Shown: positions 174 through 64,000, numbered from the stretch's first letter. The stretch is DNA of 64,000 nucleotides from Mobula hypostoma (GCF_963921235.1 NC_086097.1:31250001-31314000), one strand, 5' to 3'. Notes: generated by a model from the letters alone, not told the origin. Numbers and translations are program-made.

Positions 174-292
174 AACACAAGGAAATCTGCAGATGCTGGA
201 AATTCAAGCAACACACACGGTGGAACGCAGCAGGTCAGGCAGCATCTATAGGAAGAGGTACAGTCGACGTTTCGGGCATTTTGTGTGTGTTG
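174..292. mobile_element. PLE-terminus mini-element with short inverted second arm
   Basis: Minus-strand PLE 3' end followed by gcattttgtgtgtgttg. 15-bp TSD aatgtaaatact(g/a)ta at 159-173 and 293-307, repeated again at 313-327. Confidence 0.8.
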
Positions 293-475
293 AATGTAAA
301 TACTATATGTTGAATGTAAATACTATATTTCAAAGTAAAGATTGTGGTATATTTATTATTAAGGATTATATTCATTAACATAATTATTTACAGGGTATTT
401 CACAATTATATTAACATAGATATTAAAATTATATTAATTAATTTCAATATTACATAATTATATAGAAGAAAATTC

Positions 476-1586: not shown

Positions 1587-1809
1587 ACACACATCAAAGT
1601 TGCTGGTGAACGCAGCAGGCCAGGCAGCATCTATAGGAAGAGGTGCAGTCGACGTTTCAGGCCGATACCCTTCGTCAGGACTACGAAGGTCTCGGCCTGA
1701 AACGTCGACTGCACCTCTTTCTATAGATGCTGCCTGGCCTGCTGCGTTCACCAGCAACTTTGATGTGTGTTGCTTGAATTTCCAGCATCTGCAGAATTCC
1801 TGTTGTTTG
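1587..1809. mobile_element. Palindromic PLE-terminus mini-element (two 3' ends tail-out)
   Basis: About 90-bp near-perfect inverted arms. 16-bp TSD catctatcaccaagta at 1571-1586 and 1810-1825. Confidence 0.9.
1646..1682 (-). ncRNA. Minimal type I hammerhead ribozyme motif in a palindromic mini-element
   Basis: Minus strand reads AGUC-CUGACGA-AGGGUAUCGGCCU-GAAA-CGUC-GACUG. The plus-strand partner at 1683-1711 lacks the 5' part of the core. Confidence 0.8.
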
Positions 1810-4641: not shown

Positions 4642-4954
4642 AAAGGGAGCTCCAAACCCCACCTTCACTAAATGTCAATCAACATCAACAGACAATAGCC
4701 CACTTCATACAGTTTCTTTAACACAGCCAATGATTTCAAAACAAACAAAACCAGGACACCTTGGTCAAATAGATACTTTTTTAAAGAAGCATCTTAAAGG
4801 AGGAAAAAAGGGGGGTGAAAGGGGAATGGAAAGAATTCTGTTTTACAACGGCTGAAGTGAGGTTAAAAATTGGGACAGGGCAGAGTCCTAGGAGCCTCAA
4901 TGTAGTTGGATGTGTTCATTAGGGTAGCTGGGGTAAGAAGTTGAAAAACAGGAT

Positions 4955-5236
4955 GCGTGGTAGTGTAGTGGTTGGACTAACAATTTACAGTGCTAGCTGT
5001 AAGACTGGGGTTCAATTCCCATTGCCGTCTGTAACGAGCTTACACATTCTCCCCATAATTGCACGGGTCTCCTCCCACATTCCAAAGACATACAGGTTAT
5101 GGCTAGTGAGTTGTGGGCATGCCAAGTTGGTGCCAGAAGCATGGCAACACTTGCAGGCTGCCCCCAACACATCCTTGACACAAACAATGCATTTCACTGT
5201 TTGTTTCGATGTATATTTGATAAATAAAGCTAATCT
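4955..5236 (+). mobile_element. tRNA-derived V-SINE/HE1-like SINE
   Basis: A/B-box-like head (tggtagtgtagtgg, ggttcaattccc) and core ttctcccc...ctcccacattccaaagac. Related copies at about 575-735, 18440-18725, 19000-19440, 20580-20745, 27970-28140, 31580-31785, 33855-34105, 37495-37770, 39515-40370, 42495-42805 and 43495-43695. Confidence 0.8.
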
Positions 5237-5862
5237 TTTTTTAAATATCTTTAAAATGTTTTAAAAATCAAGCCCAGAGATCAATGTACATCAATAAGCA
5301 CAAAGTGGATAGATGAAAGGGACTTAGTGCCAGTTGGGACAAGAACTTTGCAGAGGTAGTTCAGAACAATTAAGCTCAGAGGTACCAAAAAGACTGAATG
5401 AGGCTTGTGGAAACTATCGAGTTTCAGTGGAGCAGAGTCAGGATACATTTTAGAGGTGGAAACAAACAATCTTGGTAATCTAATCTAAAGCTCAACTTGG
5501 GATGTAATACTATGGTTGCAAAGTGTCTGCCTATGCAAGATTAGTCGGAGTTCTGCTCAGTGAAGAAGGATGTCAAAAGATACAGCAGAATGTAGATCAG
5601 TGAGGGATGCAGATGGAGAAATGGCACATCCAGGCTAATGTGAGGTGTTGCACTTTGGAAGGTCAACTATAAAGGGAAAATATTTGAGACACAGATCAAG
5701 TGGACAGCCGGAGAATTTTTCCCCAGGGCAGAAATCGCTAGTATAAGGAGGCATAATTTTAAGGTGATTAGAGGTAATAGGGGAGATGTTAAAGGTAATT
5801 TTGATACACAGAGAGCAGTGGATGCATGGAACACCTGCCAGGGGTGGTGGTAGAGACAGACA

Positions 5863-6374
5863 CAATACTATACAAAAGTCTTGGGCACATATATAGCTAT
5901 GGTGCCTAAAACTTTTGCATTGTACTATAGTAATTTTATGCATTGCCCTGTAATGCTGCTGCAAAAAAAAACAAATTTCATGATATATGTGAGTGATGAT
6001 AAACCTGATTCTGATATGGGTCTCTATTGTGGACTGAGAGTGGGAAAGGGGCAGGGAGAGGGGAATCATGGTCGGGGAAAGGGAAGGGAGCAGGAAGCAC
6101 CAGAGAGACATTCTGTAATGATCAATAAACCAATTGTTTGGAATCAAATGACCATGACTGGTGTCTCAGGGTTGGGTGTGTCTTCACCTGCACCACCTTC
6201 CCCCCACCCCTGGCTCTTCAAGTGGTGCTCCACCCTCATCATTCCCGACATCTTTTGCTCCTGCCAGATTTACAAACTTGCTCTCTACTCCGAGTTGACA
6301 AATACAGTATTGTGCAAAAGTCTTATAGACATCCTAGCTATATAATATATGTGCCTAGACTTTTGCAAGTACTG
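5863..6374. mobile_element. Composite Tc1-type MITE bounded by two ~65-70 bp palindromic mini-units
   Basis: Units at 5863-5928 and 6305-6374 each resemble CAGTACTGTGCAAAAGTCTTAG...CTAAGACTTTTGCACAGTACTG. The block interrupts a CR1 tail at a (T/C)A dinucleotide. Confidence 0.75.
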
Positions 6375-8523
6375 TACATTAGGGGTATTTAAGGGACCCT
6401 TAGGCACAGGGATGAAAGAAAAATGGTGGGTTAAGTTGGATGGATGGGTTAGTTTGATCTTAGAATAGATTAAAAGGTTGGCACAACATGGTGGGTTGAA
6501 GGATACTGTACTCTACTGTGCTATGTTCTACCTGGATGCATCATGGCTTTATATGGCAATTACTCTGCACATGACCATAAGAAACCACAGAGAGTTGTGG
6601 ACACGGCTCAGCACATCGCAAGAACCAGCCTCCCCTCCATAGACTCTGTCGACGCTTCTCAATGGATCAGTAAAGTAGCTATGGTGTTCTATGTTCTAAG
6701 AAAGTTAATTGTTATTGGTTGAAGCTGAAGAAATTCACACAGGTACACAGTACTGAAACACCATGTTGCCCACCTGAAAGCGTCTAAAGCTTTCCTATGC
6801 ACGTACCAAAGGGTTGGCTTTACTTCTATTGACATTAACCTATTTGAGATTTCCCATCTACGAACTAATGCTAGGAGGAGGAGAAAACCTGGGATTAATT
6901 TGGCCAACTGCCACGTAGGTGTCAGAGTCTCCTAATCCTTTTCAGTGGCATTTCGAAGTCCAACATTCTAAAAGTTGATCAGAAGCAAATGAGTTTGAGT
7001 GCACTATTCAAAACCACGAGAAGGAAGAAATCACTGGCATAATTTGAAGATCAAAATAAGAATCCAACAGTCAATATTGTCAACATTCCAGCTATAATTT
7101 TGTGGATTAACAGGACCGGACAGATTTAAGAGGGAGTTGCAATAAAATGGCATAATAACGCCCTGCAGACTAAATATCTATGGACATGTTACAATTGCCT
7201 CCACTTATTCATCTACCCAATTCCTCCAAGATCAGCCAGTCCAGAGAGAGAAAACAAAACAACCTTGACACTTCTAACCATGTAAACTACTGTCTCAACT
7301 ATCTTTTGCCCTCACAGAATTCCAAGCCCATCTTACATGAAACTTCCTGGTTTACCCAAGTCTAACTTGCTGCATCATAACTAGGATGGAAACACTAGTC
7401 CAGAGATGGAAAAGGCTACAGAAAGTGGCGGATACAGCCCAGTCTATCATAGGGGAAAAAAACCGTCCTCCACTAAGCACATGTACAAGGAGTGCTGCCA
7501 CAAGAAAGCAGCATCCATCATCAAAGACCCCCACCACCCAAAGCCATACTCTCTTCTCACTACTACCATTGGGCAAGGAGGTACACGAGTCTTAGGTATG
7601 TGGGTGAATGGTAATTCCTCCACCTCCCACCTCTGTTTTTTCCATACCCCATTCTCATTCTCCTTCAACTTCCCTTTCTTCCATGGTCCACTGCCCTCTC
7701 CTATTAGAATCCTTCATCTTCAGCCCTTTACCTTTTCCACCTATCCCCGCCCAGCTTCTCACTTCCCCCAGCACCATCTACCCACCTTCCCCCTCATCTG
7801 GTCTCAACCAGGTTGTACTCATCACATGGTTGAACCCATCGTTAAGGAGCCCATTACCCCGGACGTGCCCTTTTCTCATTGTTACCATCAGGAAGCAGGT
7901 ACAGAAGCAGTTCCAGGAACAGCTTCTTCCCCTCTGCCATCCAATTCCTAATTGGACATGGACCCATGAGCACTACCTCACTTTTATTATTTCTGTTTTT
8001 GCACTATTTTTAATTTAACTATATACATATGTATACTTACTGCAACTTATTTATTTTTCTATTTTATCACGTATTGCACTGTTCTGCTAAGTTAACAAAT
8101 TTCACAAAATATGCCAGTGATATTAAACCTGATTCTGAAATTTTGTACAGTTCTACCAAATCTCCTCTAATTATCGTACCCTCCAGGGAATACAGTACTA
8201 ACCTAGCCAACCTTTCCCTATAACTTGGCTCCTCAAGTCCTGGCAACACCCTTGTAAATTTTCTCTCTACTCTTTCAAACTTATTGATATTTTCCTGCAG
8301 TTAATCATATTGTGCTTTGTGGATCTTGTCGAAACTCACAGTGTAGTTTCATAGCTAACAATGACTTGACAAGTTGTAAAGCACTTCGGGCACTGGTGCT
8401 ATGAAAGGTTTTACACAGGTGTTAGATAACCTGCACACAGCAACGAAACCCCCTCCCCCCTCAAACCTCTGACAAAGAAGAGCACTTGTCACTTGTGTCA
8501 AAGTCCTATGAAGTCCACTTCTG

Positions 8524-8751
8524 AAAAACACAAGAGACTGCAGATTCTGGAATCAGGAGCAACAAACAATCTGCTGGAGGAACTCAGCCAGTCAAGCAGC
8601 ATCTGTGGTGGGGGGAAAGAATTATTGATACTACAAGTCAAAATCCTACAAGACTAGATCCTGATGCAGAGCTTTGACCTGAAATATCGACACTGCTTTG
8701 CCCCCAAAGATGCTGCTCGACCCGCTGAGTTTCTCCAGCAGATAGTTTGTT
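8524..8751. mobile_element. Older palindromic PLE-terminus element
   Basis: Inverted arms aacaaacaatctgctggaggaactcagc...gcagcatct and agatgctgc...gctgagtttctccagcagatagtttgtt. Decayed hammerhead near 8657-8693. Confidence 0.7.
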
Positions 8752-10972: not shown

Positions 10973-11114
10973 ACACACACAAGCGCTGGAGGAACTCAGC
11001 AAGCCAAGCAACATCTACAGAAAAGAGTACAGTCAACTTTTCCGGCCTGAGTTCCTCCAGCATTTTGTGTGCGTTTCTTGGATTTCCAGCATCTGCAGAT
11101 TTTTTCTTGTTTGT
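10973..11114. mobile_element. Palindromic PLE-terminus element, internally deleted
   Basis: acacacacaagcgctggaggaactcag is inverted against ctgagttcctccagcattttgtgtgcg, followed by the full terminal hairpin. Confidence 0.7.
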
Positions 11115-11158
11115 GAATAAGATTGAAGAACATAAGATGAAGAGTCCTTGGAAGTGTC

Positions 11159-13421
11159 ACACACGAGGAAATCTGCAGATGCTGGAACTTCAAGCTACAC
11201 ACATGAAAGTTGCTGGTGAACGCAGGCCAGGCAGCATCTATAGGAAGAGGTACAGTCGACGTTTCGGGCCGAGACCCTTCGTCAGGACTAACTGAAAGAG
11301 ATAGTAAGAGATTTGAAAGTGGAAGGGAAGGGGGAGATCCAAAATGATAGGAGAAGACAGGAGAGGGAAGGGATGGAGCTAAGAGCTGGAAAGTTGATTG
11401 GCAAAAGGGATACGAGAGGATCGGGGACAGGAGACCTAGGGAGAAAGAAAGGGGGAGGGGGGAAGCCCAGAGGATGGGCAAGGAGTATAGTGAGAGGAAC
11501 AGAGGGGGAAAAAGGAGAGAGAGAGGGAAAAAAATACTAATAATAAAAAAATGAATAAATAATGGATGGGGTACGAGGGGGAGGTGGGGCATTAACGGAA
11601 GTTAGAGAAGTCAACGTTCATGCCATCAGGTTGGAGGCTACCCAGACGGAATAAAAGGTGTTGTTCCTCCAACCTGAGTGTGGCTTCATTTTGAGGAGGC
11701 TGTGGATAGACATATCAGAATGGGAATGGGATATGGAGTTAAAATGTGTGGCCACTGGGAGATCCTACTTTCTCTGGCGGACAGAGCGTAGGTGTTCAGT
11801 GAAATGGTCTCCCAGCCTGCGTCAGGTCTCGCCAATATATAGAAGGCCGCATTGGGAGCGCCAGATGCAGTATATCACCCCAGCCGACTCACAGGTGGAG
11901 TGTCGCCTCACCTGGAAGGACTGTCTGGGGCCCTGAATGGTAGTGAGGGAGGAAGTGTAAGGGCATGTGTAACACTTGTTCCGCTTACAAGGATAAGTGC
12001 CAGGAGGGAGATCGGTGGGAAGGGATGGGGGGGAGGGAGGGAAAGATATGCTTAGTGGTGGGATCCCATTGGAAGTGGCGGTGGCGGAAGTTACAGAGAA
12101 TAATATGTTGGACCCGGAGGCTGGTGGGTTGGTAGGTGAGGACAGGGGAACCCTATTCCTAGTGGGGTGGCGGGAGGATGGGGTGAGAGCAGATGTGCAT
12201 GAAATGGGAGAGATGTGTTTGAGAGCAGAGTTGATGGTGGAGGAATGGAAGCCCCTTTCTTTAAAAAAAAAGGACATCTCCTTCATCCTGGAATGAAAAG
12301 CCTCATCCTGAGAGCAGATGCGGCGGAGACGGAGGAATTGCGAGAAGGGGATGGCATTTTTGCAAGAGACAGGGTGAGAAGAGGAATAGTCCAGGTAGCT
12401 GTGAGAGTCAGTAGGCTTATAGTATACATCGGTAGTTAAGCTGCCTCCAGATATAGAGACAGAAAGATTAAGAAAGGGGAGAGAGGTGTCGGAAATGGAC
12501 CAGGTAAACGAGGGCATGGTGAAAGTTGGAGGCAAAGCTAATGAAGTCAACGAGCTCAGCATGTGTGCAGGAAGCAGCGCCAATGCAGTCATCGATGTAG
12601 CAAAGGAAAAGTGGGGGACAGATAACAGTATAGGCTTGGAACATGGATTGTTCCACAAAGTCAGCAAAAAGGCAGGCATAGCTGGGACCCGTACAGATGC
12701 CCATGGCTACACCTTTAGCTTGGAGGAAGTGGGAGGAGCCAAAGAAGAAATTATTAAGAGTAAGGACTAATTCTGCTACACAGAGCAGAGTGGTGGTAGA
12801 GGGGAACTGGTCAGGTCTGGAATCCAAAAAGCAGAGAGCTTTGAGACCTTCCTGGTGGGGGATGGAAGTATATAGGGACTGGACATCCATGGTGAAAATA
12901 AAGTGGTGGGGGCCAGGGAACTTAAAATCATCGAAAAAATTCAGAGCGTGAGAAGTGTCACAAACATAGGTGTGGGAAGGGATTGAACAAGGGGGGATAA
13001 AACAGTGTTGAGGTATGCAGAAATAAGTTCGGTGGGGCAGGAGCAAGCTGAGACAATGGGTCTACCTGGACAGGCAGGTTTGTGGATTTTGGGCAGGAGA
13101 TAGAAACGGGAAGTGCGAGGTGTGGGAACTATAAGATTGGTAGCAGTGGATGGGAGATCCCCTGAGCGGATAAAGTTGGTGATGGTATGGGAGACAATGG
13201 CTTGGTGCTCCTTAGTGGGGTCATGATCCAGGGGTAAATAAGAGGAGGTATCCGCGAGTTGTCGCTGTGCCTCGGCAAGGTAGCAGTCAGTACACCAGAC
13301 CACAACAGCACCCCCCCTTATCAGTGGGTTTTATTGTAAGGTTAGGATTAGCGTGGAGGGAGTGGAGAGCAGAGTGTTCGGAAGGAGTGAGGTTGGAATG
13401 GGAACAAGATGTGGTGAAGTC
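11159..13421 (-). mobile_element. Penelope-like retroelement, 5'-truncated, frameshifted copy
   Basis: ORF pieces 12941..13303, 12468..13046 and 11822..12679 carry the same RT and GIY-YIG motifs and are colinear with the 15.1-18.4 kb copy. Hammerhead at 11253-11289. Confidence 0.93.
11253..11289 (-). ncRNA. Minimal type I hammerhead ribozyme motif in PLE 3' terminus
   Basis: Minus strand reads AGUC-CUGACGA-AGGGUCUCGGCCC-GAAA-CGUC-GACUG: full core, stem I AGUC/GACU, stem II GGGU/GCCC, palindromic stem III ACGU, GUC cleavage triplet. Confidence 0.85.
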
Positions 13422-18376: not shown

Positions 18377-18378
18377 AC

Positions 18379-37457: not shown

Positions 37458-38278
37458 GTCCAAAGTTGTGCTGAGTCCCTCACAAAATTGTGGGGTGACA
37501 CAAGTTGCAGAACAGTTAGCACAACGATATCGTAGGTCAGGGGATTGGAGTTTAACATGGTGTCCTCTGTAAAGAGTCTCTGTACATCCTCCCCGTGGAA
37601 TACGTGGGTTTCCTCCCAGGATCTAAAGACGTATCAGGTAGGTTAATTGCTCATAGTAAATTGTCCCATGATTAGATCAGTGTTAAATAAGGGTTGTTAT
37701 GAGTTGCTGGGCAGCTTAGCTGAAAGGGCCAGAAACATCTATTCTGTGCTGTATCTCTAAATAAAATAAATAAATTGAACGTCTACAGAGGTTCTGTTGA
37801 AAGTATCCTGACCAGTTGCATCATGGTCTGGTACAGCAATTCAAACATAAGAAACTGCAGAAAGTAGTAAACTCCACTCAGTACATCATGGACATATCCC
37901 TCCCCATCGGTAGTATCTACAGGAGGTGCTGCCTTAAGAATATAACATCCAGCAAATATCCCCACCATCTGGTCCAGGCCCTGTTCTCAGTTTCCATCGG
38001 GCAGGGGGTAGAGAAGGCTGAAGTCAAAAACCACCAGCTTCAAGAACAGCTACTTCCCTTCAAGGGTTTATTTCCTGAACCCGCAACACTTTGGTCGAGC
38101 AACACAACGATCACTTTCATCCTTCTGCACTGAAATGTTCCAATTGTTTCTTTCTTGTAAAATTGTGTATAAATTATGTTTATGTTTCCTCATGAATGCT
38201 GCTTATCTGATGCTCTGTGACACTGCTGCAAGTAAGTTTTTCATTGCACCCGACAATACTTGTGTATGTGACAATAAA

Positions 38279-38502
38279 CTCACAAAAAGCTGGAGGAACA
38301 TGGCAGGTCAGGCAGCATCTATGGAGGGGAATAACAATCCACGTTATGGGCTGAGACCCTTCATCGTGACTGCTGAAGGGTCTCCGGCCAAAGCATCAAC
38401 CACTTATTCCCTTACACAGATGCTGCCCGACATGCTTAGTCCCGCCAGCTCTTTGTGTATGTTGCTCTGGATTTCCAGCATCTGCAGCATCACTTGAGTT
38501 TA
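38279..38502. mobile_element. Older palindromic PLE-terminus element
   Basis: Inverted arms with two decayed hammerheads back to back (about 38335-38400). TSD tgacaataa at 38269-38277 and 38503-38511. Confidence 0.75.
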
Positions 38503-39108
38503 TGACAATAAGTTGAATGTTGTTGTTGATTTATGTGGTCAGGTGTCTCTGGAGATGTTCCTGGACCAGCGGGCACTGCAGGGGCTAGAGTGCTCCCTGG
38601 GCTTCAGGGAGCACATTTTAATTCAAAATGTTGTAAATAAGGTCATTTTATTTAAGAAAAGGACTGAAAACTTAACACAAACACACAAAATGGTAGCCTC
38701 AGGAAATAAAGGCTAGAGAAAAGAGCACAATAAGGCAAAGTCTAAGTCACTTGGGTGGGGACCCTCCTCTGACAGAACACTGTAAACAAGTGTAAAATTC
38801 CATCCTGCCTGTGTACCACCCCACTCTTCCAACAGAACTCATTATTACTGTTAAACAATGCAAGACACTGTTATCCTCAAAAGGCTCCCTTCATTGCCCT
38901 TGAATGACCTAACTGGTATCCATTCTTTGATCAAACTACCAAGCTCTGCCAGAAGGCACGATCTGCAATGCAAAAAGCGACTTCACTATCAACTGCTCTT
39001 CACACTCTACAGACAAGGACTGAATCACAACAGAAACACAAATTAGGGCCAAGCGGGTACAATTAGTATGGAGCCTTTCATTTACAAGCGCGGTGATGAT
39101 TCCACATT

Positions 39109-50515: not shown

Positions 50516-51215
50516 CTGCTCGCTTCTTTATTTTCCCTTATCCCACTGGCCACAACAGCTCACCTCTTTCCCCTCTCATTCAATCTGCTCATCACCCACA
50601 CATTCCTACCTCTAGTTCAGATTCAGATTCATTGATTTATCATCGAAACTTACAGTGAAATGCATTGTTTACCCTCACTTCCTTCATCTTTTTCCATGGT
50701 CCACCATCATCTCCTATCAAATTCCATTATCAGCCATTTGTCAATTCCACCTATCATCTCCCAACTCCTCACATCATTCCCAACTCTTCCCCCACCTGCC
50801 CATCACCCACTCCCCACCTCACCTGGATCCACCTATCACCCACCAGCTCTTAACCCACCTCTTATCCCCACCTTTTATTCCAGGTATCTTTCTTTCCAGT
50901 CCAGGTGAAGGATCTTGATGCAAAACATTGACTGTTTATTCCCCTCCACAGATGCTGCCTGATCTGCTGAGTTCCTCCAGCACTCTGGGTGTTGCTCCAG
51001 AACACACCATCAGCTCCTGACGATTGGCTTTGCTACAGATTTGCCATAAAGCTAATCTTCAGAGAAAACACACATGTGCAAATACATGCTAAGATTCAAG
51101 TGCTGTGGTTACATTATAAAAAACACAAATGTGTTATACAACACACACAAAATGCTGGAAGAACTCGGGCAGCAACTTTGGTGGAAAATAAACAGTCAAT
51201 GTTTCAGGCCAATAT

Positions 51216-52063: not shown

Positions 52064-55000
52064 ACCAGTTACCTTACTGAATATCTACGGACCAAACAGG
52101 GATGACCCGGAACTTTTTAGACGAGTTCTAGGATTGATACCAGAGGTCTCCAGTACTAACCTGATTACTGGAGGGGATTTTAATTTTGTTCTGGATACAT
52201 ATCTAGACAGATCTTCCAATCAGAGGGCATTACCATCAAAGGCAAGTAAACTGCTGAGAACATATGTAGACGATATGAATCTGTGTGAGATACAGAGATT
52301 ATTCAACTCAACAGGGGGAGAGTATTCATTCCACTCTAGAGTTCATAATGTACATACTAGGATTGACTATTTCCTCCTTGATGGCAAAGTACTACCACAA
52401 GTCGATAACGTAAGATATCATAATATTGTCATCTCAGACCACAGCCCTGTTACTTTTTCACTGGAGCTGGCTGAATTGACCCAAATACATAGAAATTGGA
52501 GGTTTAGTCCTCAGCTACTTACAAACCCAAACTTTTGTGAGTATTGAGAATCGCAAATTTTTTTTGAGACAAATGATAATAGTGAAACACCCCCAGGACT
52601 ACTATGGGAAACATTTAAAGCTTACGTTAGAGGATGTATAATTTTTCAGTCTTCCCTAAAGAAATGTAGTAGAGCAGGACAAATAGAACTACAAACATTT
52701 GTAGAAGAACAAAAACGTAAACTAGACACAGAGAATGTGTGACAACCACCCGCAGAAAAATACAACAGAATTTCAGCATTAAAATACAAACTGAACCAAA
52801 TACTCTCAGGAAGGATGTGCACAGCTCTTATGTTTACAAAACAGAATTTCTTTGAATTTGGTGATAGACCGCACAAATTGCTGGCAAGACAGCTAAGCAA
52901 ATTGGAAAGTGATCGGGCCATTCATAAAATTAAATCAGACTCGGGCGCTCCATTGATGTCACACAAAGACATTAATCAAAGATTCTGTCAGTATTATGAA
53001 AAATTATATGCATCTCAATCTAATGTACCGACGGGGAGCGTGCACACATTTCTGGACATTTGTAGGCTACCTTCACCCAATCTGACAGAGTGTCAGGCTT
53101 TGGAAGCAGAGATTACAAATGACGAAATAGTAAGAACAATAAGATCCCTGAAAATGGCAAGAGTCCAGGTTCGGATGGAATAGGTAATGAGTTTTATAAG
53201 TTTAGTGACTTATTAGCACCTTACATGGTAAGGATGTACAGAAAGTCATTTGAAATTGGCAGGTTATCTCAAACCCTGAACGAGGCCATTATCACACTTA
53301 TTCCGAAGAGGACAAAGACCCAGAAGAAGTAGGATCTTATAGGCCGATTTCACTGCTGAATTCGGATCAGAAAATTTTGGCTAAAATGCTGGCAAGGAGA
53401 CTCAATCAGCAGATAAATAAATTGGTACACTATTATTCTTTCCATAATATCAGGCGCCTTCTTAGTATAATGCATTCCCGAAGACATCCTAAGGAAGACC
53501 TTATAATATTAAGTTTAGATGCTGAGAAAGCATTCGACCAAGTGGAATGGCAATACCTCTATGAGGTTATGAAAAAATCTGGAATGGGAGACAAATTTAT
53601 AACTTGGATCAAGCTACTGTACAGTAACCCCAGTGCTAAAATACTAACTAATCAGACCCTCTCGGAACAATTCAGTTTGCACAGGGGCGCAAGACAGGGC
53701 TGTGCATTAAGTCCATTATTGCTTGTATTGGCCCTGGAACCACTGGCGGAGACTACACGTTCTCACCCCAAAATTTATGGGTACAATACAAAATATACTA
53801 TCAACAAAATATCCCTTTATGCGGACAATGTTTTGTTGTTTGTAACAAAACCATATATTACTATTTCAGTTTTGCTGGAAATAGTCAATTTATTTGGCAC
53901 TTTCTCGGGGTATAAGATTAACTGGGGGAAAAGTGAATTATTCCCGGTCCGAGTAGAAGAACAGGAGGGGCTTAAACAATTTCCATTCAAAATAACCCTT
54001 GAGAAGTTTACTTATCTTGGAATTGTAAAAACCAAAAAGTATAGTTCTCTATTTGAAGCAAATTTTATCCCTCTAATTGAAAAGATTAAAAAGAAAATAA
54101 AATTTTGGAAGACACTCCCAATTTCTTTAGTGGGTAGAGTAAATACAGTCAAGATGATCTTTCTTCCCCAACTGATCTATCTATTTCAGTACCTGCCCCT
54201 CGATCTTACCAAAACCTTTTTTAAAGAATTAGATTCGATAATTCTACCTTTTATATGGAATTATATAAGTCCATCGAATTAGAAAAGAACATCTCTGCAA
54301 GAATAAGACTTGTGGGGGGCTGGCACTACCCAACTTTATTTTTTATGACTGGGCTGCTAACGTTAGCCATATAGCATACTGGATAGATGATACAGTTGTA
54401 CTTCCCGGATGGTTGGAGATGGAGCATGAGGATTGCCTACCATATTCCATAGGGGCAATCATTATGTCCCCTATTTGGTTAAATAAATACTGTTATAGAG
54501 GCAATTCCATTATCCATAGCACCATACAGATGTGGAGACAAATGGGGAAGCATTTGAAACTCAGAACATTATGTTTTCTTGTTACATAGATGTGTTGCTG
54601 GCTGTTGTGGCTCACTGGGGTGGAAGAGACTGTTCCATGATGTATAATGAAATAAACTAATTCAGTAAATAAAATTCAAAGATGAACACAGAACACAACA
54701 GCACAGTATGGACACTTTGGCCCACAATGTTGTGCCGAATTTTTAACCTACATCAGCGAACCCCTCTTTTATCCCCTCATGTATAGATGGGGCCTTTGAT
54801 GCATGGTGAGCATTAGGGATACGCAGCGTTGGAGACTTACACACACAAGGGATTCTTGCATCATTCCGGCAGCTCCAGAACAAATTCAGATTGCAAAAGA
54901 ATCATTTTTTCAGGTATCTCCAGCTATGACACTATATAAGATCACATCTTTCTGGTTTTGAGACGGCAGAACCTGATAAATCAGATAATCATCGCCTATC

Positions 55001-56230: not shown

Positions 56231-56329
56231 ATGTCCCTAACGTATCTGTCTCTACCACCACCCCGGTAGCGTGTTCTATGAATTCACCACTCTCTGTGTA
56301 AAAAACTTACATCTGACAATCCCCAGAGT

Positions 56330-56542
56330 AACAGTCACAAAATGATAAGAGGAACTCAGCAGGTCAGGTAGCATCTATGGAGAGGAATAAAGAGTCAACT
56401 TTTCGGGCCAGCACCCTTCACCAGGACTTGATGAAGGACACAAGTCCTTATGAAGGCTTTCGGCCCAAAACATCAACTGTTTATCCCTCCCCATTGATGC
56501 TGCCTGACCTGTTGAATTTCTCCAGCATCTTGTACGTGTTAC
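56330..56542. mobile_element. Palindromic PLE-terminus element in a CR1 tail
   Basis: cagcaggtcaggtagcatc is inverted against gatgctgcctgacctgttg. Decayed hammerheads on both strands at about 56393-56479. Confidence 0.75.
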
Positions 56543-58294
56543 ACTGACTTACCCTTATATGTTCCTCTGATCAACTTAAAATTATGCCACCTCATAATAG
56601 CCTCTTAAGCCTTGTATTAGCCATTTCCACTCTGAGAAACAAATCTCTGACTGTCCATTCTCATCTTGTACAACTCTTTCAAGACACCCCTCATGTTCTT
56701 TTGCTCTAAAGAAAAAAGCCCGAGCTCGCTCAATCAATCCTTGCAAGCCAAATCATTTAAGTAACAGCCATTGTCTTCAGTATTAATTAATTCTTCTCCA
56801 GTGTTTGAACAAGCAGAGGCATGGAAGTTTGCCAGGCAAGTGGAGGCTCTCACAGTCCTGACTTCCCTCCCATAAAACAACAGAGCAACAAAGCAGGATT
56901 TGCAGCAACTAACCACGTCATACAACATCAACACAAAGCAAATAGGCTGCCTGCCCACAAGCAACTTAATCTCTGAATCAGTGTTTGCCATTGCCGGTTA
57001 CAGACCGTGCAATCTGAATGATTGGGAAAAGAATGAGATCATGAGAACACAAGTACAGCTGGAGATGAGGATCCACGTCAAAGGGTGACTGCGAAGCTTT
57101 TCACATCAAGCAAGCAAAGAGCCAGTCACCTTTGAAATAAATCCTGGTCCTTGGAGTAAGAAATAGAAGGTCTTGCTCACAATTCCATGGTGAGTCAGGT
57201 TGCTGCCGACAGAATCACTGCCATAACAGAGAATGCAGGAACATAGAACAGTACGTTCAGCCCCTAACATCTGAGCTGCAAAAATTTTGCAGATGCTAGA
57301 AATCCAAAGCAACACAGACAAAATCCTACAGGGACTCAGCAGGTCAGGCAGCATTTAAGGAGAGGAATAAACAGTTGGCACTTTGGGCTGAGACCATAGT
57401 TCCCTCTAAGCTGTGCGCATGCACACACGTTCTTCAACCAGCGCACAAAGGAAATTAATGTGCGCACAAAAGGTTAGTTACTTAAAATAATGTAGTAATT
57501 AATAATTATACTTATTGAAAATAATCTTTTAGCTGTTTCTGTTAACTAGTTAGTCGGTTTTTCAAATACCACAATGCACGTCACTAATTTATGTCACCTC
57601 ACCTTTCCTGTTCCGGTTTGTACAGCTGCATCACGGCGGCAGCCATGTTTGGCAGACAGTGTTCAGTGTTTGTAAAGTTTACAAAGATCTGCTTCAATTC
57701 CTGTAGATAGCTTACTAAGTTTTTATTGAAAACAATATTGATTCACTATGTTGAATTCAAAAGAAGTGAAGGGCATGAAGTGCAAAAGAACTGTAAGTTT
57801 GTTTAAAGTTGAATGGCTTAACATATAGTAGAAACTGCCACACAGAAAGCTCGTGAGGTCATGAACATTCAGCTAAGAAAAATACTTATGTATGATTTGG
57901 AAACTGGAGTTATTTGTTTATATTGTCGTGATGCGAAAGTTGCTGGAGAATTCGCTAGTGGAAAGAAATGGGATGATATTTGGAAACTTGACTTTTTGAA
58001 GCATCATCTGGCAAGAAAATCGCATTTGGATGGTGTACAAAAGCTCAGGCAACAGAACCCGTCATTACCCATTATAGGAGTGCTACGCATGTTACGGTCG
58101 AGTGCTCATGAGCGAGAGTGAAAACGATCAAACCCAGAGGAGATCAAAGTTGAGGTACAAGAATGGTCAGCTTTTGATTTCTCCACAATTGCAGATTGTG
58201 ACTTCACATTTGGCGATGAACAAGTTAATGCCTTATGTCTAAAATATCATGATTTTCTAGCTGAAAATACTGTAACAGTTAGACAGTTTAATGA

Positions 58295-61090
58295 AACAAC
58301 ACACATCAAAGTTGCTGGTGAACGCAGCAGGCCAAGCAGCATCTGTAGGAAGAGGCGCAGTCGACGTTTCAGGCCGAGACCCTTCGTCAGGACTAACTGA
58401 AGGAAGAGTGAGTAAGGGATTTGAAAGTTGGAGGGGGAGGGGGAGATCCAAAATGATAGGAGAAGACAGGAGGGGGAGGGATAGAGCCAAGAGCTGGACA
58501 GGTGATAGGCAAAAGGGGATACGAGAGGATCATGGGACAGGAGGTCCGGGAAGAAAGACGGGGGGGGGGACCCAGAGGATGGGCAAGAGGTATATTCAGA
58601 GGGACAGAGGGAGAAAAAGGAGAGTGAGAGAAAGAATGTGTGCATAAAAATGAGTAACAGATGGGGTACGAGGGGGAGGTGGGGCCTTAGCGGAAGTTAG
58701 AGAAGTCGATGTTCATGCCATCAGGTTGGAGGCTACCCAGACGTTGTTCCTCCAACCTGAATGTGGCTTCATCTTTACAGTAGAGGAGGTCGTGGATAGA
58801 CATGTCAGAATGGGAATGGGATGTGGAATTAAAATGTGTGGCCACTGGGAGATCCTGCTTTCTCTGGCGGACAGAGCGTAGATGTTCAGCAAAGCAGTCT
58901 CCCAGTCAGCGTCGGGTCTCGCCAATATAGAAAAGGCCACATCGGGAGCACCGGACGCAGTATATCACCCCAGTCGACTCACAGGTGAAGTGTTGCCTCA
59001 CCTGGAAGGACTGTTTGGGGCCCTGAATGGTGGTAAGGGAGGAAGTGTAAGGGCATGTGTAGCACTTGTTCCGCTCACACAGATAAGTGCCAGGAGGGAG
59101 ATCAGTGGGGAGGGATGGGGGGAGGACGAATGGACAAGGGAGTTGTGTAGGGAGCGATCCCTGCGGAATGCAGAGAGAGGCGGGGAGGGAAAGATGTGCT
59201 TAGTGGTGGGATCCCGTTGGAGGTGGCGGAAGTTACGGAGAATAATATGTTGGACCCGGAGGCTGGTGGGGTGGTAGGTGAGGACCAGGGGAACCCTATT
59301 CCTAGTGGGGTGGCAGGAGGATGGAGTGAGAGCAGATGTACGTGAAATGGGGGAGATGCGTTTAAGAGCAGAGTTGATAGTGGAGGAAGGGAAGCCCCTT
59401 TCTTTAAAAAAGGAAGACATCTCCCTCATCCTAGAATGAAAAGCCTCAACCTGAGAGCAGATGCGGCGGAGACGGAGGAATTGCGAGAAGGGGATGGTGT
59501 TTTTGCAAGAGACAGGGTGAGAAGAGGAATAGTCCAGATAGCTGTGAGAGTCAGTAGGCTTATAGTAGACATCAGTGGATAAGCTGTCTCCAGAGACAGA
59601 GACAGAAAGATCCAGAAAGGGGAGGGAGGTGTCGGAAATGGACCAGGTAAACTTGAGGGCAGGGTGAAAGTTGGAGGCAAAGTTAATAAAGTCAACGCGT
59701 TCTGCATGCATGCAGGAAGCAGCGCCAATGCAGTCATCGATGTAGTGAAGCAAAAGTGGGGGACAGATACCAGAATAGGCACGGAACATAGATTGTTCCA
59801 CAAACCCAACAAAAAGGCAGGCATAGCTAGGACCCATACGGGTGCCCATAGCTACACCTTTAGTTTGGAGGATGTGGGAGGAGCCAAAGGAGAAATTATT
59901 AAGAGTAAGGACTAATTCCGCTAGACGGAGCAGAGTGGTGTAGAGGGGAACTGATTAGGTCTGGAATCCAAAAAGAAGCGTAGAGCTTTGAGACCTTCCT
60001 GATGGGGGATGGAAGTATATAAGGACTGGACATCCATGGTGAAAATAAAGCGGTGGGGGCCAGGGAATTTAAAATCATCGAAAAGTTTAAGAGCGTGAGA
60101 AGTGTCACGAACATAGGTCGGAAGGGATTGAACAAGGGGTGATAAAACAGTGTCGAGGTATGCAGAAATGAGTTCGGTGGGGCAGGAGCAAGCTGAGACA
60201 ATAGGTCGGCCAGGACAGGCAGGTTTGTGGATCTTGGGTAGGAGGTAGAAACGGGAAGTGCGGGGTGTGGGAACTATAAGCTTGGTAGCAGTGGATGGGA
60301 GATCCCCTGAGTGGATAAAGTCGGTGATGGTGTGGGAGACAATGGCCTGGTGCTCCTTAGTGGGGTCACGATCGAGGGGTAAATAAGAGGAGGTATCCGC
60401 GAGTTGTCGCTGTGCCTCGGCAAGGTAGAGGTCAGTATGCCAGACTACAACAGCACCCCCCTTATCGGCGGGTTTAATAATAAGGTTAGGATTAGTGCGG
60501 AGGGAGTGGAGAGCAGAGCGTTCCGAAGGAGTGAGGTTGGAATGGGGACAGGGTGCGGTGAAGTCGAGACGGTTGATGTCCCGTCGGCAATTAGCGATAA
60601 AGAGATCCAGAGCAGGCAGAAGACCAGAGCGGGTTGTCCATGAAGAAGAGGAGGGTTGAAGACGGGAGAAGGGGTCATCGGTGGGGGTGGAAGAGTCCTT
60701 GCCGAAGAAGTAGGCTCGGCACGGAGACGGCGGAAGAAAAGTTCCGCATCGTGGCGAACACGGAACTCGCTGAGGTGTGGGTGAAGGGGGACAAAGATGA
60801 GGCCCTTACTGAGAACAGAGCGTTCTGCCTCCGACAGTTGAAGGTCGGAGGGGATGGTAAAGACCCGGCACGGATGAGAGCTGGGATCAGAGGGGGGAGG
60901 GGGGAGGCTGGAGGTGTCAGTGGAGAGGGGAGGGTTGCGGTGAGAGGAAGATGGAGCCTCTGAGGGCCCAGGAGCTGACGGTGGGATCTGAGGAAGACGG
61001 GGCTGCGGAGTGGTGGTGGGGGAAAGGGAGACGGGAGTCACAATAGCAGCACTTGAAGACCCGGCCTGGAGTTCAAGGCTGGTGTCAAAA
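58295..61090 (-). mobile_element. Penelope-like retroelement, 5'-truncated, inserted in a hAT transposon
   Basis: ORF pieces 60445..61110 and 58998..59849 are very similar to the 15.1-18.4 kb copy. Perfect 14-bp TSD agacagtttaatga at 58281-58294 and 61091-61104. Confidence 0.95.
58358..58394 (-). ncRNA. Minimal type I hammerhead ribozyme motif
   Basis: Minus strand reads AGUC-CUGACGA-AGGGUCUCGGCCU-GAAA-CGUC-GACUG, with an intact core. Confidence 0.85.
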
Positions 61091-64000
61091 AGACAGTTTA
61101 ATGATTTCAAATTTTCTGTGCAAGAAAAATTAAATCCAAACTGATTTCAAACTTTGCTCAAATGGTGGCATTTGTACTTCAAAATGAACAGTTTTGCAAC
61201 CTTGCACAGTTGATGGACATTGGGGGAACCTTTCTTGCGTCTAGTGCGGACTGTGAGCGAGGTTTTAGCCTAATGAATCAATTCTAAAACAAGCTGAGAA
61301 ACCGTTTAGGTGAAAGTCATTTGGATATGTTAATGAGAATCAAAAGCTATCAATTGGATGGAAGTTCTATTAGTCTAGATAGAGTTTACAAAGAATGGGT
61401 AAATGCCAAAGACAGGAGAGAGAGAAAATAACTGAGTGACTTAAATATGTATGTTATTTTCTTGTTATTCTGTGCAGTTTTATGTCAAATATTTTGTAAA
61501 CCTACATAAAATGTGCCATGTGTGCATTCAGTGTGCACATACTTTTGTCACAGGAAAAATATTTGCACAACTTAAGATTTTTGTGCACAATGACTACTAA
61601 AAATTAGAGGGAACATTGGCTGAGACCCCAGAATAAGCTTGGTTTTTGTCCCTTACTTTTCCAGTCTTGATGAAGGGTCTCAGACCAAAATGGACAGTTT
61701 ATTCCCATTCATAGATGCTGCCTGACCTGCTGACTTCGTCCAGCATTTTGCATGCTGCGTCAAATTAAACTAATCCTTTCTGCCTAATCCATATACCCCT
61801 CCTATTAAAAGACGTATTTCCTTTATGAAAGCTCTGCAAAACACCTTAATCCAAAGTCTTGCACAGTCAAGTAGGCACTAAGCACAGAATTTAATGAAGT
61901 TTAAGTCACAGTTGTATATATGAGGCAGCCAATATGTTCTACATAAACAAATCTCAGAGAGGTGCAAGACCAGCGGGAGATTTTAACTAAAAGGAGATTA
62001 TTACTTTCCTGGGATTGCATTAACGCACAGGGTCTGGAAGCAGCAAAATTTCTTCAGTATGTCAAAGATTAGAAACCCACACAACTGTCCATTAGCATGT
62101 GCTTGTCCAAAGGGATAACGAAAGTCGGTATAATTATTTACAGCAGCACCGGCTGCAAGGATACAGGCTTTTGTTAAGGCAAAAAGTTCCGACTACTTGA
62201 GCAGAACGGGATGGAAAGTAGCTGTACCACCTCAGCCGTTAGATGACGTGCACACACTGCATATCCACTAAAAATATCCTCTATTTCCCTTCCAGTATCA
62301 GATGGGAGGAAAAGCAGAAGAAAATTTACATGTGGACTTACATCAAATGACGTTTTACAATTAAAATTTAAATCGCACAAGTTTTTAAGTATAGTTCAGG
62401 AATGAATTAATTAAAATTAACTGCGTAGTCTATAGTGCTGGTGGCAATAGAGGCAGAAACTTATCAAAGTTGCTTTGGCCCGAGGGCAGTAGCCAGACTG
62501 CCCACAAACAAAAATATACCCCTCGCAGACATTCCCCATGTTTACCCCTACCATGTTCACCATCCCATCTCATGTTTATTGGATCAAACAAGTGTAAAGC
62601 CCATACATTTAGAATTATCTGAACAACTACGCTGTTCAAAATAAATATCGCCAGTCAAAAAAGGGTCATATGAATCATATGTATATAAAGCAGGTAAAGT
62701 TAAAACTGAAGTTTCCAGTGAAACGTTAAGAAGTTAATCTGGTAATGATTAGCCAAAATTTAGTCGCTGTCAATTTGGTTAAATATAAAATGAAGCTATG
62801 TTTAAAAAATATTCAAATTGTATAGGGCAGCTATAGCAATCTTTTTAAAGCACCGTACAATATTATAAATAAGAGAAAGTCTGCAGATACTGGAAATCCA
62901 AAGCAATACACACACACACATACACAAAATGCTGCAGGAACTCAGCAGGTCAGGCACCAGCTATGGAAATGCATAAACAGGCAATATTTCAGGCTGAGAG
63001 CCTTCTCCAGGACTGAGATGGGGGAAAACGGCAGAATAAAAAGGTGGGGGGAGGGGAAGGAGGCTAGTTGGAAACTGATAAGTGAAGCCAGGTGGGTAGG
63101 AAAGGTAAAGGACTGGAGAGGAAGGAATCTGATGGGAGAGGACAGTGGACCATAGGAGAAAGGGAAGGAGAAGGTGTCTGGGGTGGGGGGGGTGATAAAC
63201 AGGTCAGAGTAGAGAATAGGGTTTCGGGGGGGGGGGTGGAGGAATATTGCCCAGAAACTTTTGTGGCGCAGCCCAGGAAGTCTCACACAAGTTTTGTCCT
63301 CATTCCCTTTAACAGTTTTAATTCTTTGAAGTTGGAATTACTTTTGGCAATGTTGTAAAACACTCACAATTTTACTCATCTCACACAAGAACAGTAGATA
63401 TTTTCCTTTAACCTAGGTTGCAACGTTTTACAATAGCATTTATTAAGATGGGCGTTAACACTTCTAGAGCTGATCCAGAATACTTTTGAAAACATTTACG
63501 CACGCGTTTTATGTATTCATTACATCATTGTCTTTTGTATTTTAAGCCAATCTAAGTGCAAGGGAAATACTTCCTTCAAGCTCCTACTGGATCAGTTCAA
63601 GGTATATTTAAATCAACATTTCACTCCTCCCCTGCCTCCCATGTCCTGCAGTGCGATTGGAAACCATCAGTCATGGCAGGGCAATGGCTGACACTGGTCT
63701 CGCCAAGTACTCAAAAGGTGCCACTTGGCATGCATCTTGTTGAAACCGTGCCTGACTGCAGCATCTAGCTCACACTTAGATTCTAGTGCCAATTGTTTCT
63801 TTTCGTACACTGAGGTTTCATACATTATCATCCTTTGCATGTTCCTTCTGTCTTTTCCTTTTTAAATTTTGCTCACTTTCGTTGCTTTTTAAAAAAAACA
63901 GGATTCATCTAACTGCTGTTTGCATTTCACATCTACATTGAACAACCACAGGCTACCCTACAGTCTTCTCAAATTTCACGCTACCATTCATGCACACACA

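What the first reader, a model, noticed from the sequence alone, without database searches (positions are those of the whole stretch)
174..61760. Recurrent palindromic tail-out mini-elements made of two PLE 3' ends centred on the hammerhead
Seen: at least seven short insertions (174-292, 1587-1809, 8524-8751, 10973-11114, 38279-38502, 56330-56542, and about 57278-61760 split by the hAT) consist of a minus-strand PLE terminus fused to a plus-strand one. The inversion point falls in or beside the hammerhead. Clear TSDs: 16 bp at 1587, 15 bp at 174, 9 bp at 38279. Both young and old subfamilies do this. Inference: either a non-autonomous hairpin retroposon class (retrozyme-like RNA released by hammerhead cleavage and mobilised by PLE RT/EN), or repeated double priming of short ribozyme-cut RNAs from both nicks of one target. 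The differing junctions favour independent formation.
Basis: partly seen in the sequence, partly recalled or inferred. Interest (0 to 1): 0.8.

Follow-up and report, generated by a model that had tools for sequence, protein, structure and literature searches.

The report
Head-to-head Penelope retroelement insertion scars
The short palindromes are real, but each is the scar of one insertion of an abundant Penelope-like retroelement in which both cut DNA strands started a copy; this double-copy layout is already described for such elements, so they are not a new hairpin transposon class.

Summary
All seven inverted pairs exist. They are 3' ends of a very abundant Penelope-like element (PLE): 52,962 tail matches and 122,566 core matches in the 3.48-Gb genome.

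I sampled 100 tail-anchored copies. Of these, 31 carry an abutting inverted arm.
- 27 of the 31 have a direct repeat of 9 bp or more around the whole composite.
- The two arms of a pair differ by 2.7%, against 6.8% to other copies (25 of 26 pairs, p=2.6e-5).
- Junctions differ from pair to pair.
- The window's own junction has only 87 near matches genome-wide.

So each pair forms de novo in a single event. It is not an amplified hairpin family.

Exactly one arm carries the 36-38-nt tail: 0 of 31 pairs have two tails. In 16 of 31 the tail-less arm reaches further 5'. This requires two separately primed cDNAs.

Inner ends cluster at the 5' edge of the minimal hammerhead (45 of 90 ends within -5..+10, p=1e-20). 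They do not cluster at its cleavage site (3 of 99).

This is the published PLE insertion architecture and matches the in-vitro two-strand, two-start-site mechanism (PMC8557442, PMC11167929). The scan noted a similar head-to-head pair before, in a rotifer. Moderate interest.

The parts
174..277 (-). E1 tail-bearing arm. The tail complement lies at its left end. The inner end lies inside the hammerhead, at about +21.
278..292 (+). E1 tail-less arm, only 15 nt (about +84..+98). The 15-bp TSD lies at 159-173 and 293-307 with 1 mismatch.
1587..1682 (-). E2 tail-less arm. It starts at ACACACATC (about +98) and ends at the 5' edge of the hammerhead (+1). It contains a complete minimal hammerhead motif at 1642-1686(-).
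1683..1809 (+). E2 tail-bearing arm. It starts at ACGAAGG (+8). The tail is 1771-1809. The 16-bp TSD lies at 1571-1586 and 1810-1825.
8524..8655 (-). E3 tail-bearing arm of an old subfamily. The inner end lies at the hammerhead 5' edge.
8656..8751 (+). E3 tail-less arm. It begins AGATCCTGATG.
10973..11047 (-). E4 tail-less arm. The inner end lies inside the hammerhead, at about +21.
11048..11113 (+). E4 tail-bearing arm, strongly 5'-truncated (starts at about +66).
38278..38371 (-). E5 tail-less arm of an old subfamily.
38373..38502 (+). E5 tail-bearing arm. The tail is about 38463-38502. The 9-bp TSD TGACAATAA lies at 38269-38277 and 38503-38511.
56296..56438 (-). E6 left arm. By my reading of the sequence its outer 20-25 nt are a decayed tail.
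56439..56548 (+). E6 right arm, tail-less. The junction is complex, with an 8-nt partial start followed by ACAC filler.
57283..57397 (-). E7 tail-bearing arm. It is cut off from its partner by a later insertion.
57398..61616 (.). Element with inverted termini (GTTCCCTCTAAG... / ...TTAGAGGGAAC), flanked by a repeated GGCTGAGACC. It splits E7 and is not part of the PLE pair.
   Evidence: sequence read directly
61626..61758 (+). E7 tail-less arm. It starts about 35 nt upstream of the hammerhead.
11158..11360 (-). Longer young PLE 3' end. It shows the sequence upstream of the hammerhead (CTCTTTCAGTT|AGTCCTGACGA).

Best explanation
Each palindrome is the product of one integration event of an autonomous, endonuclease-bearing Penelope-like element (PLE).

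Proposed steps:
1. The element's endonuclease nicks both target strands, about 12-17 bp apart. This stagger gives the TSD.
2. Both 3'-OH ends prime reverse transcription of the element's RNA near its 3' end. One cDNA starts at the distal start site (+131..+145) and so carries the 36-38-nt 'tail'. The other starts at the proximal site (about +97..+106) and lacks it.
3. Both cDNAs run towards the RNA's 5' end.
4. Their 3' ends are then joined head to head by template jumping, with 0-5 nt of microhomology or a few filler bases, and each is copied on the other.
5. The result is a tail-out inverted duplication flanked by one TSD.

The minis are short because this family is truncated at the 5' end extremely often. 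The truncation points pile up at the 5' edge of the minimal hammerhead.

Shown: the single-event origin, the one-tail rule, the need for two cDNAs, and the hot spot. Inferred: the order of steps, the template jump, and whether one RNA or two serve as template.
For: - Family identity. A full-length copy has one 1092-codon open frame with RVT_1 (E=5e-5) followed by a C-terminal GIY-YIG domain (E=3e-3; E=6e-5 in another copy).
- Frequency. 31 of 100 tail-anchored copies carry an abutting inverted arm. That is 31 of the 68 insertions shorter than about 430 bp.
- One event. 27 of 31 have a direct repeat of 9 bp or more around the whole composite, with a mode of 14-15 bp.
- Same template. Own-arm divergence is 2.7% against 6.8% to other copies. 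It is lower in 25 of 26 pairs (Wilcoxon p=2.6e-5). Over 2199 sites there are 57 differences shared by both arms and 60 arm-to-arm differences. In 8 of 8 copies with the window's junction type, the CpG-derived variant (C/T/TA) is the same in both arms.
- One-tail rule. The outer end of the partner arm never exceeds +106, so 0 of 31 pairs have two tails. Among 15 tail-less anchors, 13 have no partner, 2 have a tail-bearing partner and 0 have a tail-less partner. If the partner carried a tail at the solo frequency of 10/23, about 13 of 31 would be expected (P about 3e-8).
- Two cDNAs are needed. In 16 of 31 pairs the tail-less arm extends further 5' than the tail-bearing arm, in 13 the reverse holds, and in 2 they are equal. 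A fold-back of a single cDNA cannot supply the extra bases in both directions.
- Coupled inner ends. Mean |x1-x2| is 20.5 against 31.8 when partners are permuted (P=0.0005), with Spearman 0.39. One locus is a 2.3-kb palindrome with 1.15-kb arms.
- Literature. PLE insertions 'often' have an inverted 5'-truncated copy and a 30-40-bp tail at one end (PMC8557442, passages). A purified anole PLE protein cleaves and extends both strands and starts reverse transcription at two adjacent internal sites, with the tail lying between them (PMC11167929, main text up to the start of the Methods).
Against: - The outer end of the tail-less arm lies at +97..+106 in only 16 of 31 pairs, at +87..+94 in 9 and at +37..+77 in 6. 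All 13 tail-less solo copies end at +96..+103. So the second priming is less precise than a fixed 'site 1', or part of that arm is lost during resolution.
- No RNA or biochemical data exist for this family.
- The sample is 100 copies from the first 14.6 Mb of one contig. It includes only copies with a perfect 40-nt tail, which are the youngest.
- In the old window pairs (74-79% arm identity), simultaneous origin cannot be shown.
- 4 of 31 pairs lack a detectable TSD.
Confidence: 0.75

Rival explanations
1. Fold-back (snap-back) of a single cDNA. One target-primed cDNA reaches the end of its template, loops back and copies itself. The hairpin strand is then ligated into the target.
For: Arm inner ends are coupled and 14 of 31 pairs have |x1-x2| of 10 or less. 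Arms of 1.15 kb meet within 16 nt in L110. The outer end of the tail-less arm is imprecise, as expected if it marks where back-copying stopped.
Against: In 16 of 31 pairs the tail-less arm contains bases that the tail-bearing arm lacks, and in 13 the reverse holds. One cDNA cannot template both cases. A fold-back that began from the tail-less cDNA cannot produce the tail. The 13 of 31 junctions with 1-15 nt of filler, and the variable single base at the commonest junction (GGACT[A/T/G]CGAAGG), fit end-to-end jumps better than self-priming.
Confidence: 0.12
2. A self-propagating non-autonomous hairpin retroposon (retrozyme-like). A hairpin or short hammerhead RNA is transcribed from the minis themselves and re-inserted by the PLE enzyme.
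For: The 223-bp E2 matches at least 40 unlinked places end to end at 92-98%. Ends pile up at one position (+1..+3), as for a discrete short RNA. Every such copy keeps both reverse-transcription start sites.
Against: - The exact junction is rare. There are 87 matches with up to 2 mismatches (14 exact), and many of these are other junction variants, against about 16,000 pairs extrapolated.
- Variants are symmetric between arms and track the subfamilies of long elements.
- The same six-site haplotypes occur in long copies, solos and pairs.
- No tandem arrays of the module occur in the window.
- The arm downstream of the junction lacks an intact CUGAnGA box.
Confidence: 0.05
3. Two independent insertions that happen to abut, or nesting because the endonuclease prefers its own sequence.
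For: The in-vitro target of the anole enzyme was its own ORF-pLTR junction (PMC11167929). Old pairs in the window have arms only 74-79% alike and weak or absent TSDs.
Against: TSDs flank the composite in 27 of 31 pairs. The arms of a pair are closer to each other than to other copies in 25 of 26. Only the tail-out orientation is enriched (11 of 30 against 0 of 30). The one-tail rule holds.
Confidence: 0.05
4. A DNA-level foldback element or MITE with terminal inverted repeats.
For: The overall shape is palindromic and flanked by direct repeats.
Against: The arms are the 3' UTR of a retroelement. The flanking repeats are 9-17 bp and variable in length. The inner junctions vary and the outer ends are asymmetric, with one tail. 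No transposase is associated.
Confidence: 0.01

Closest known systems
Canonical insertion architecture of endonuclease-bearing Penelope-like elements (Penelope/Poseidon, Neptune, Nematis, Naiad), as summarised in Craig et al. 2021, PMC8557442 (passages read)
   Same: High 5' truncation. An inverted 5'-truncated copy lies immediately adjacent, forming inverted repeats. A 30-40-bp 'tail' is present at only one end. A hammerhead motif sits in the terminal region. TSDs vary in length.
   Different: Here both copies are so short (about 15-140 nt) that the whole insertion is a 120-260-bp palindrome. I measured frequencies (31 of 100), the one-tail rule and the junction hot spot. I did not see such numbers in the passages I read.
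In-vitro mechanism of the green-anole PLE 'PAc' (Frangieh et al. 2024, PMC11167929; main text up to the start of the Methods)
   Same: Both target strands are cleaved and extended. Reverse transcription starts at two adjacent internal AC-rich sites, and the tail is the stretch between them. Hammerhead cleavage is not needed for insertion.
   Different: That work did not describe joined inverted products. Here the genomic products imply that one start site is used by each strand in the same event. In this family the hammerhead lies in the 3' UTR, about 300 nt after the stop codon, and not at the ORF start.
Metazoan non-LTR retrozymes (Li, Clavereau and Pollet 2026 preprint, 10.64898/2026.07.22.740005: abstract and passages read; Cervera and de la Pena 2020 seen only as a citation in a reference list)
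   Same: Short PLE-derived sequences that carry a hammerhead and depend on PLE enzymes.
   Different: Retrozymes are head-to-tail tandem units thought to move through circular RNA. These are inverted pairs without tandem arrays, and they show no sign of ribozyme-defined ends.
L1 'twin priming' 5' inversions (recalled from memory, no call)
   Same: Both nicked target strands prime cDNA synthesis on the element RNA in one event. The cDNAs are joined by microhomology and one TSD flanks the whole.
   Different: In L1 the second primer anneals upstream on the RNA, so the product is an inversion of different sequence and not a palindromic duplication of the same 3' end.
Minimal hammerhead ribozymes of PLEs (Cervera and de la Pena 2014, PMC4209133; passages read)
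   Same: CUGAnGA box, helix II, and GAAAC-GUC with no helix III loop (the 'min-HHR', proposed to act as a dimer). The helix I 5' strand directly follows an AG acceptor-like site, as reported there for D. virilis Penelope.
   Different: Activity is untested. Rfam models do not detect it. I found no covariation support.

Membership tests
Endonuclease-bearing Penelope-like element (canonical, C-terminal EN) | Single ORF with reverse transcriptase followed by a C-terminal GIY-YIG endonuclease | tested here: met
   In L148(-), a 1092-codon open frame has RVT_1 at aa 583-745 (E=5.2e-5, 23.5 bits, below the 29.6 cut-off) and GIY-YIG at aa 995-1068 (E=3.3e-3). GIY-YIG scores 23.6 bits, above the 22.6 cut-off, in the L110 copy. 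The scores are weak but the domain order is as defined.
Endonuclease-bearing Penelope-like element (canonical, C-terminal EN) | Insertions 5'-truncated, often with an adjacent inverted 5'-truncated copy and a one-sided 30-40-bp tail | tested here: met
   Only 534 copies keep the 5' UTR junction, against 52,962 tails. 31 of 100 have an inverted arm. The tail is 36-38 nt and sits on exactly one arm.
Endonuclease-bearing Penelope-like element (canonical, C-terminal EN) | Telomerase-like placement of the RT in a phylogeny | not tested
   No tree or homologue search was run.
Hammerhead ribozyme (minimal PLE type) | Conserved core CUGAnGA ... GAAA ... UH, with helices I and II | tested here: met
   The motif AGUC-CUGACGA-AGGGUCUCGGCCU-GAAAC-GUC|GACU is present in young copies. 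In the alignment of 19 window copies, 79% of cells pair in helices I and II, against 15-44% when partners are slid. The departures in old copies look like CpG decay by my reading.
Hammerhead ribozyme (minimal PLE type) | Detection by curated covariance models, or covariation support | tested here: not met
   No Rfam hammerhead hit at gathering score or at E up to 10. Covariation is no better than in shuffles. The published min-HHR descriptor was not available to run.
Hammerhead ribozyme (minimal PLE type) | Self-cleavage | not testable with these tools
   Only 3 of 99 insertion ends coincide with the predicted cleavage site. So the genomic record gives no sign of cleaved templates.
Non-LTR retrozyme | Head-to-tail tandem repeats of a hammerhead-bearing unit | tested here: not met
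   There are no tandem arrays of the module in the window. The arrangement is inverted, not tandem.
Non-LTR retrozyme | Circular RNA intermediates | not testable with these tools
   No usable RNA data. The runs found are contigs of uncertain kind.
MITE / foldback DNA transposon | Fixed-length TSD and equivalent terminal inverted repeats | tested here: not met
   TSDs range from 9 to 17 bp. The outer ends are asymmetric and the inner junction varies.

The most novel reading that the evidence does not exclude
The one-tail rule and the coupled arm ends may mean that a single RNA molecule is copied twice in one integration event by the two protomers of a dimeric PLE ribonucleoprotein, with one protomer starting at each of the two start sites. 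About half of all short insertions would then derive from a discrete RNA of about 135 nt. Its 5' end would be set at the 5' edge of the hammerhead, next to a motif conserved in all subfamilies: a pyrimidine tract plus AG, which can be read as a splice acceptor or as an initiator (YYANWYY). The end would be set there by processing, by an alternative start, or by protection from 5' exonuclease, and not by ribozyme cleavage. The genome would then hold a natural record, tens of thousands of events deep, of coordinated two-strand target-primed reverse transcription.
Probability: 0.3. Interest if true: 0.6.

Novelty: new member of a known kind. Interest (0 to 1): 0.4.

Why it matters
How PLEs integrate is still poorly understood, and the only biochemical study is recent. 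This genome carries an estimated 16,000 young head-to-head pairs, extrapolated as 31% of 52,962 tails. They behave as fossil reaction products.

They suggest three things:
- Both strands are primed in about a third of events.
- The two start sites are used one each.
- Hammerhead cleavage rarely defines the template.

For annotation, these palindromes should be masked as PLE insertion by-products. They should not be called MITEs, microRNA hairpins or a new transposon class. Rfam gives weak microRNA-like hits to them.

Tried and rejected
- Rfam. A search at gathering score over the whole window and at E up to 10 on E2 and on two long copies gave no hammerhead hit. Only generic hairpin-like microRNA matches below their thresholds appeared.
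- Covariation. The test of helices I and II on 19 window copies showed no covariation beyond shuffles.
- Pfam on the ten longest window ORFs. There were no PLE domains in the window itself, only two RVT_1 ORFs, at 25458-26174 and 53254-54282.
- Public runs. No RNA holder was listed. All runs are contigs whose kind is a guess.
- Laying X1, X2, X3 and X5 on a 1.8-kb copy. This gave thousands of repeat-derived contigs, no consistent GT..AG joint ending at the acceptor-like site, and no starts or ends. It is uninformative on RNA 5' ends or splicing.
- Full-length 5' ends. I tried to see where full-length copies begin, to test a transcription start near -111 or +1. The question stays open.
- Earlier notes of this scan. 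There was nothing on this genome. Two notes concerned PLEs in other genomes.
- Literature. Searches for a description of quantified inverted PLE pairs or of hairpin PLE derivatives returned the four papers used here and nothing more specific. [quoted passage not shown] 2004) were not seen and may hold more.
- Idea considered and dropped: that the about-430-bp copies ending at -294 form a SINE-like unit. This was an artefact of my reference copy L017, which is itself truncated there.

Full report
**What is there**

The window lies in a 3.48-Gb eukaryotic assembly. It holds about two dozen loci with the 3' end of one repeat family, by my reading of the hit table.
- E2 (1587-1809) is young. Its arms are 97% complementary and it has an exact 16-bp TSD.
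- E1 has a 15-bp TSD with one mismatch. Its second arm is only 15 nt.
- E5 has an exact 9-bp TSD.
- E3, E4 and E6 have only degenerate flanking repeats.
- E7 is split by a later element with inverted termini. I found no TSD for it.
- Arm-to-arm identity in the old pairs is 74-79%.

**What the family is**

The repeat is the 3' UTR of an endonuclease-bearing Penelope-like element (PLE). A full-length copy (L148, reverse strand) has one 1092-codon open frame with RVT_1 followed by a C-terminal GIY-YIG domain (GIY-YIG also). A 435-nt 3' UTR follows.

I number the 3' UTR from the A of AGUCC, which is +1.
- A minimal hammerhead motif occupies +1 to about +37: AGUC-CUGACGA-helix II-GAAAC-GUC|GACU. 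The predicted cleavage is between +32 and +33.
- The 'core' ends at about +97.
- A 36-38-nt 'tail' (+98..+135) follows.
- The tail is identical to the first 44 nt of the element's 5' UTR (L148: 2932-2975 equals 6451-6494). This is what published work expects if reverse transcription can start at two sites on a read-through or tandem RNA.

The family is very large:
- 52,962 matches to a 40-nt tail pattern, with 0 matches to the control.
- 122,566 matches to a 36-nt core pattern.
- Only 534 matches to the junction of tail and 5' UTR.
- Many copies with open frames of up to about 1000 codons or more.

**An unbiased sample**

I took the first 100 places on contig C1 that match the tail perfectly. 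I mapped each on a natural reference copy, L017. Of the 100:
- 32 reach at least -290.
- 37 are simple 5'-truncated insertions.
- 31 have an inverted arm abutting their 5' end.

So 31 of the 68 short insertions are 'palindromic minis'.

The sample has limits. It covers 14.6 Mb of one contig, only copies with a perfect tail, and a reference that is itself truncated at -294.

**Each pair is one event**
- In 27 of 31 pairs a direct repeat of 9 bp or more, with a mode of 14-15 bp, flanks the whole composite. Four have none.
- The two arms of a pair differ at 2.7% of sites, against 6.8% to the arms of other loci. The own-arm value is lower in 25 of 26 pairs (Wilcoxon p=2.6e-5).
- Over 2199 compared sites, 57 differences from the reference are shared by both arms and 60 separate the arms.
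- In eight copies that share the window's junction type, the subfamily-diagnostic variants are the same in both arms in 8 of 8.
- Only the tail-out orientation is enriched. There are 11 of 30 abutting inverted cores upstream: 10 listed by the script, plus L024, whose short arm is seen. There are 0 of 30 within 300 bp downstream of the tail.

**It is not an amplified hairpin family**

E2 matches at least 40 unlinked places end to end at 92-98% (40 of 2086 candidates were scored). Taken alone, that would suggest a propagating 223-bp element. Four observations argue against this.
- The 31 sampled junctions are nearly all different.
- The window's exact junction has only 87 matches with up to two mismatches (14 exact). 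Many of these differ at the junction base itself (GGACT[A/T/G]CGAAGG).
- The same six-site haplotypes occur in long copies, solos and pairs.
- No tandem arrays of the module occur in the window.

**Anatomy that bears on mechanism**

1. One tail only. The partner arm never extends beyond +106 (0 of 31 with two tails). In a second sample anchored on the core (30 loci, six of them shared with the first sample), 15 anchors lack the tail. Of these, 13 have no partner, 2 have a tail-bearing partner and 0 have a tail-less partner. With a tail frequency of 10/23 among unpaired copies, about 13 two-tailed pairs would be expected among 31 (P about 3e-8).

2. Two cDNAs are required. In 16 pairs the tail-less arm reaches further 5' than the tail-bearing arm, in 13 the reverse holds, and in 2 they are equal. 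A single cDNA folding back on itself cannot provide the extra bases in both classes.

3. The inner ends are coupled. Mean |x1-x2| is 20.5 against 31.8 after permutation (P=0.0005). One locus (L110) is a 2.3-kb palindrome whose 1.15-kb arms meet within 16 nt.

4. The junctions vary in form. 16 show 1-5 nt of possible microhomology, 13 show 1-15 nt of filler, and 2 are blunt.

5. The outer end of the tail-less arm is at +97..+106 in 16 pairs, at +87..+94 in 9 and at +37..+77 in 6. All 13 tail-less solo copies end at +96..+103. This looseness is not explained by a strict 'site 1'.

**Where the arms end relative to the hammerhead**

Of the 99 inner or 5' ends (37 solo, 31 x1, 31 x2), 90 lie between -50 and +100. 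Of those 90, 45 lie between -5 and +10 (binomial p=1e-20 against a uniform spread).
- By class the counts are solo 12 of 31, x1 20 of 30 and x2 13 of 29.
- The commonest single position is +2.
- Only 3 of 99 ends lie at +32..+34, the cleavage site, with about 1.8 expected. A fourth, L025, lies there by eye.

It lies at the 5' edge of the motif, and the arms contain the uncut ribozyme. This agrees with the report that hammerhead cleavage is dispensable for insertion in vitro (PMC11167929).

Smaller clusters lie at -10..-14 and at about -110.

Directly upstream of +1, all subfamilies in the window keep a pyrimidine tract plus CAG, or TTAG in the young family.
- This can be read as a splice acceptor. 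In D. virilis Penelope an intron ends exactly at the 5' end of helix I (PMC4209133, passage). That intron lies 46 nt downstream of an internal, initiator-type promoter (PMC2377424, passages).
- It can also be read as an initiator.
- I could not decide what sets the hot spot. A discrete RNA 5' end, a stop of the enzyme, and exonuclease trimming to a protected core all remain open.

**Most likely mechanism**

A single integration event in which both nicked target strands prime cDNA synthesis on the element's RNA. One starts at the distal start site and carries the tail. The other starts at or near the proximal site. The two cDNA 3' ends are then joined head to head by template jumping, and each is copied on the other.
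- Shown: the single-event origin, the one-tail rule, the need for two cDNAs, and the hot spot.
- Inferred: the order of steps, the jump itself, and whether one RNA or two serve as template.

**Comparison with what is known**

[quoted passage not shown] The anole enzyme cleaves and extends both strands and starts at two adjacent internal sites that bracket the tail (PMC11167929).

The minis are therefore extreme, very short examples of a known architecture in a new and very large family.

They are not retrozymes, because they are not tandem. They are not MITEs.

The hammerhead assignment rests on the motif only. Rfam does not detect it, and the 19-copy alignment shows compatibility (79% paired) but no covariation.

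What may be new is quantitative: the frequency of pairs, the strict one-tail rule, the coupling of arm ends, and the end hot spot away from the cleavage site. I did not find these in the literature searches.

**Verdict**

Noticed in passing
window 57398-61616: An element of about 4.2 kb with inverted termini (GTTCCCTCTAAG... / ...TTAGAGGGAAC), flanked by a repeated GGCTGAGACC, sits in the centre of pair E7. Its long minus-strand ORFs (58998-61146) have no Pfam hit. A young PLE fragment lies inside it at 58294-58469.
   Followed up: partly
window 288-339: A 20-bp unit made of the last 5 nt of E1's short arm plus its 15-bp TSD (TGTTGAATGTAAATACTATA) is repeated 2.7 times in tandem at the right boundary of E1.
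   Followed up: no
L110 (reverse strand) 4677-6981: A 2.3-kb near-perfect palindrome (98.2%) made of two PLE 3' parts of 1.15 kb each. It has the same tail-out, one-tail layout as the minis.
   Followed up: partly
L076/L077 (G000:C1:8236168-8237136): An internally deleted PLE derivative. A 3' UTR piece from -111 to the tail runs straight on into the 5' UTR and the first approximately 125 nt of the ORF, then jumps back to -123 of the 3' UTR. It shows that read-through or tandem-type RNAs starting near -111 are copied.
   Followed up: partly
window copies listed (e.g. 28388-28432(-), 50894-50938(+), 61659-61701(+)): A pyrimidine tract plus CAG (TTAG in the young family) is kept directly 5' of the hammerhead in diverged subfamilies. 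It is acceptor-like or initiator-like, and it coincides with the hot spot of insertion 5' ends.
   Followed up: partly
window 1636-1721, both strands: The centre of the palindrome gives sub-threshold Rfam matches to unrelated microRNA precursor models (for example mir-3926 at 44.7 bits against a gathering score of 82). This is a likely source of false microRNA calls. Whether such pairs yield small RNAs is untested.
   Followed up: no
window 50898-51014(+) and 51140-51210(-); also 11048-11113(+) facing 11158-11360(-): Two 'tail-in' (convergent) neighbourhoods of PLE 3' ends, with spacers of 125 and 44 bp. These are probably independent insertions. They contrast with the abutting tail-out pairs.
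   Followed up: no
window 12001-14000 and 16001-18000: Strong positive GC skew (0.39-0.42) and long minus-strand ORFs (11822-12706, 15572-17980) without Pfam hits.
   Followed up: no
window 53254-54282(+) and 25458-26174(+): ORFs with RVT_1 matches (E=6e-31 and 7e-6). They look like reverse transcriptases of other retroelements, not of the PLE family studied.
   Followed up: no
tail-less arms of L014, L028, L054, L101, L102: Five of 31 tail-less arms begin at +37..+57, around CCUAUAGAUGC, instead of at about +98. This hints at a third, minor start or resolution point.
   Followed up: no
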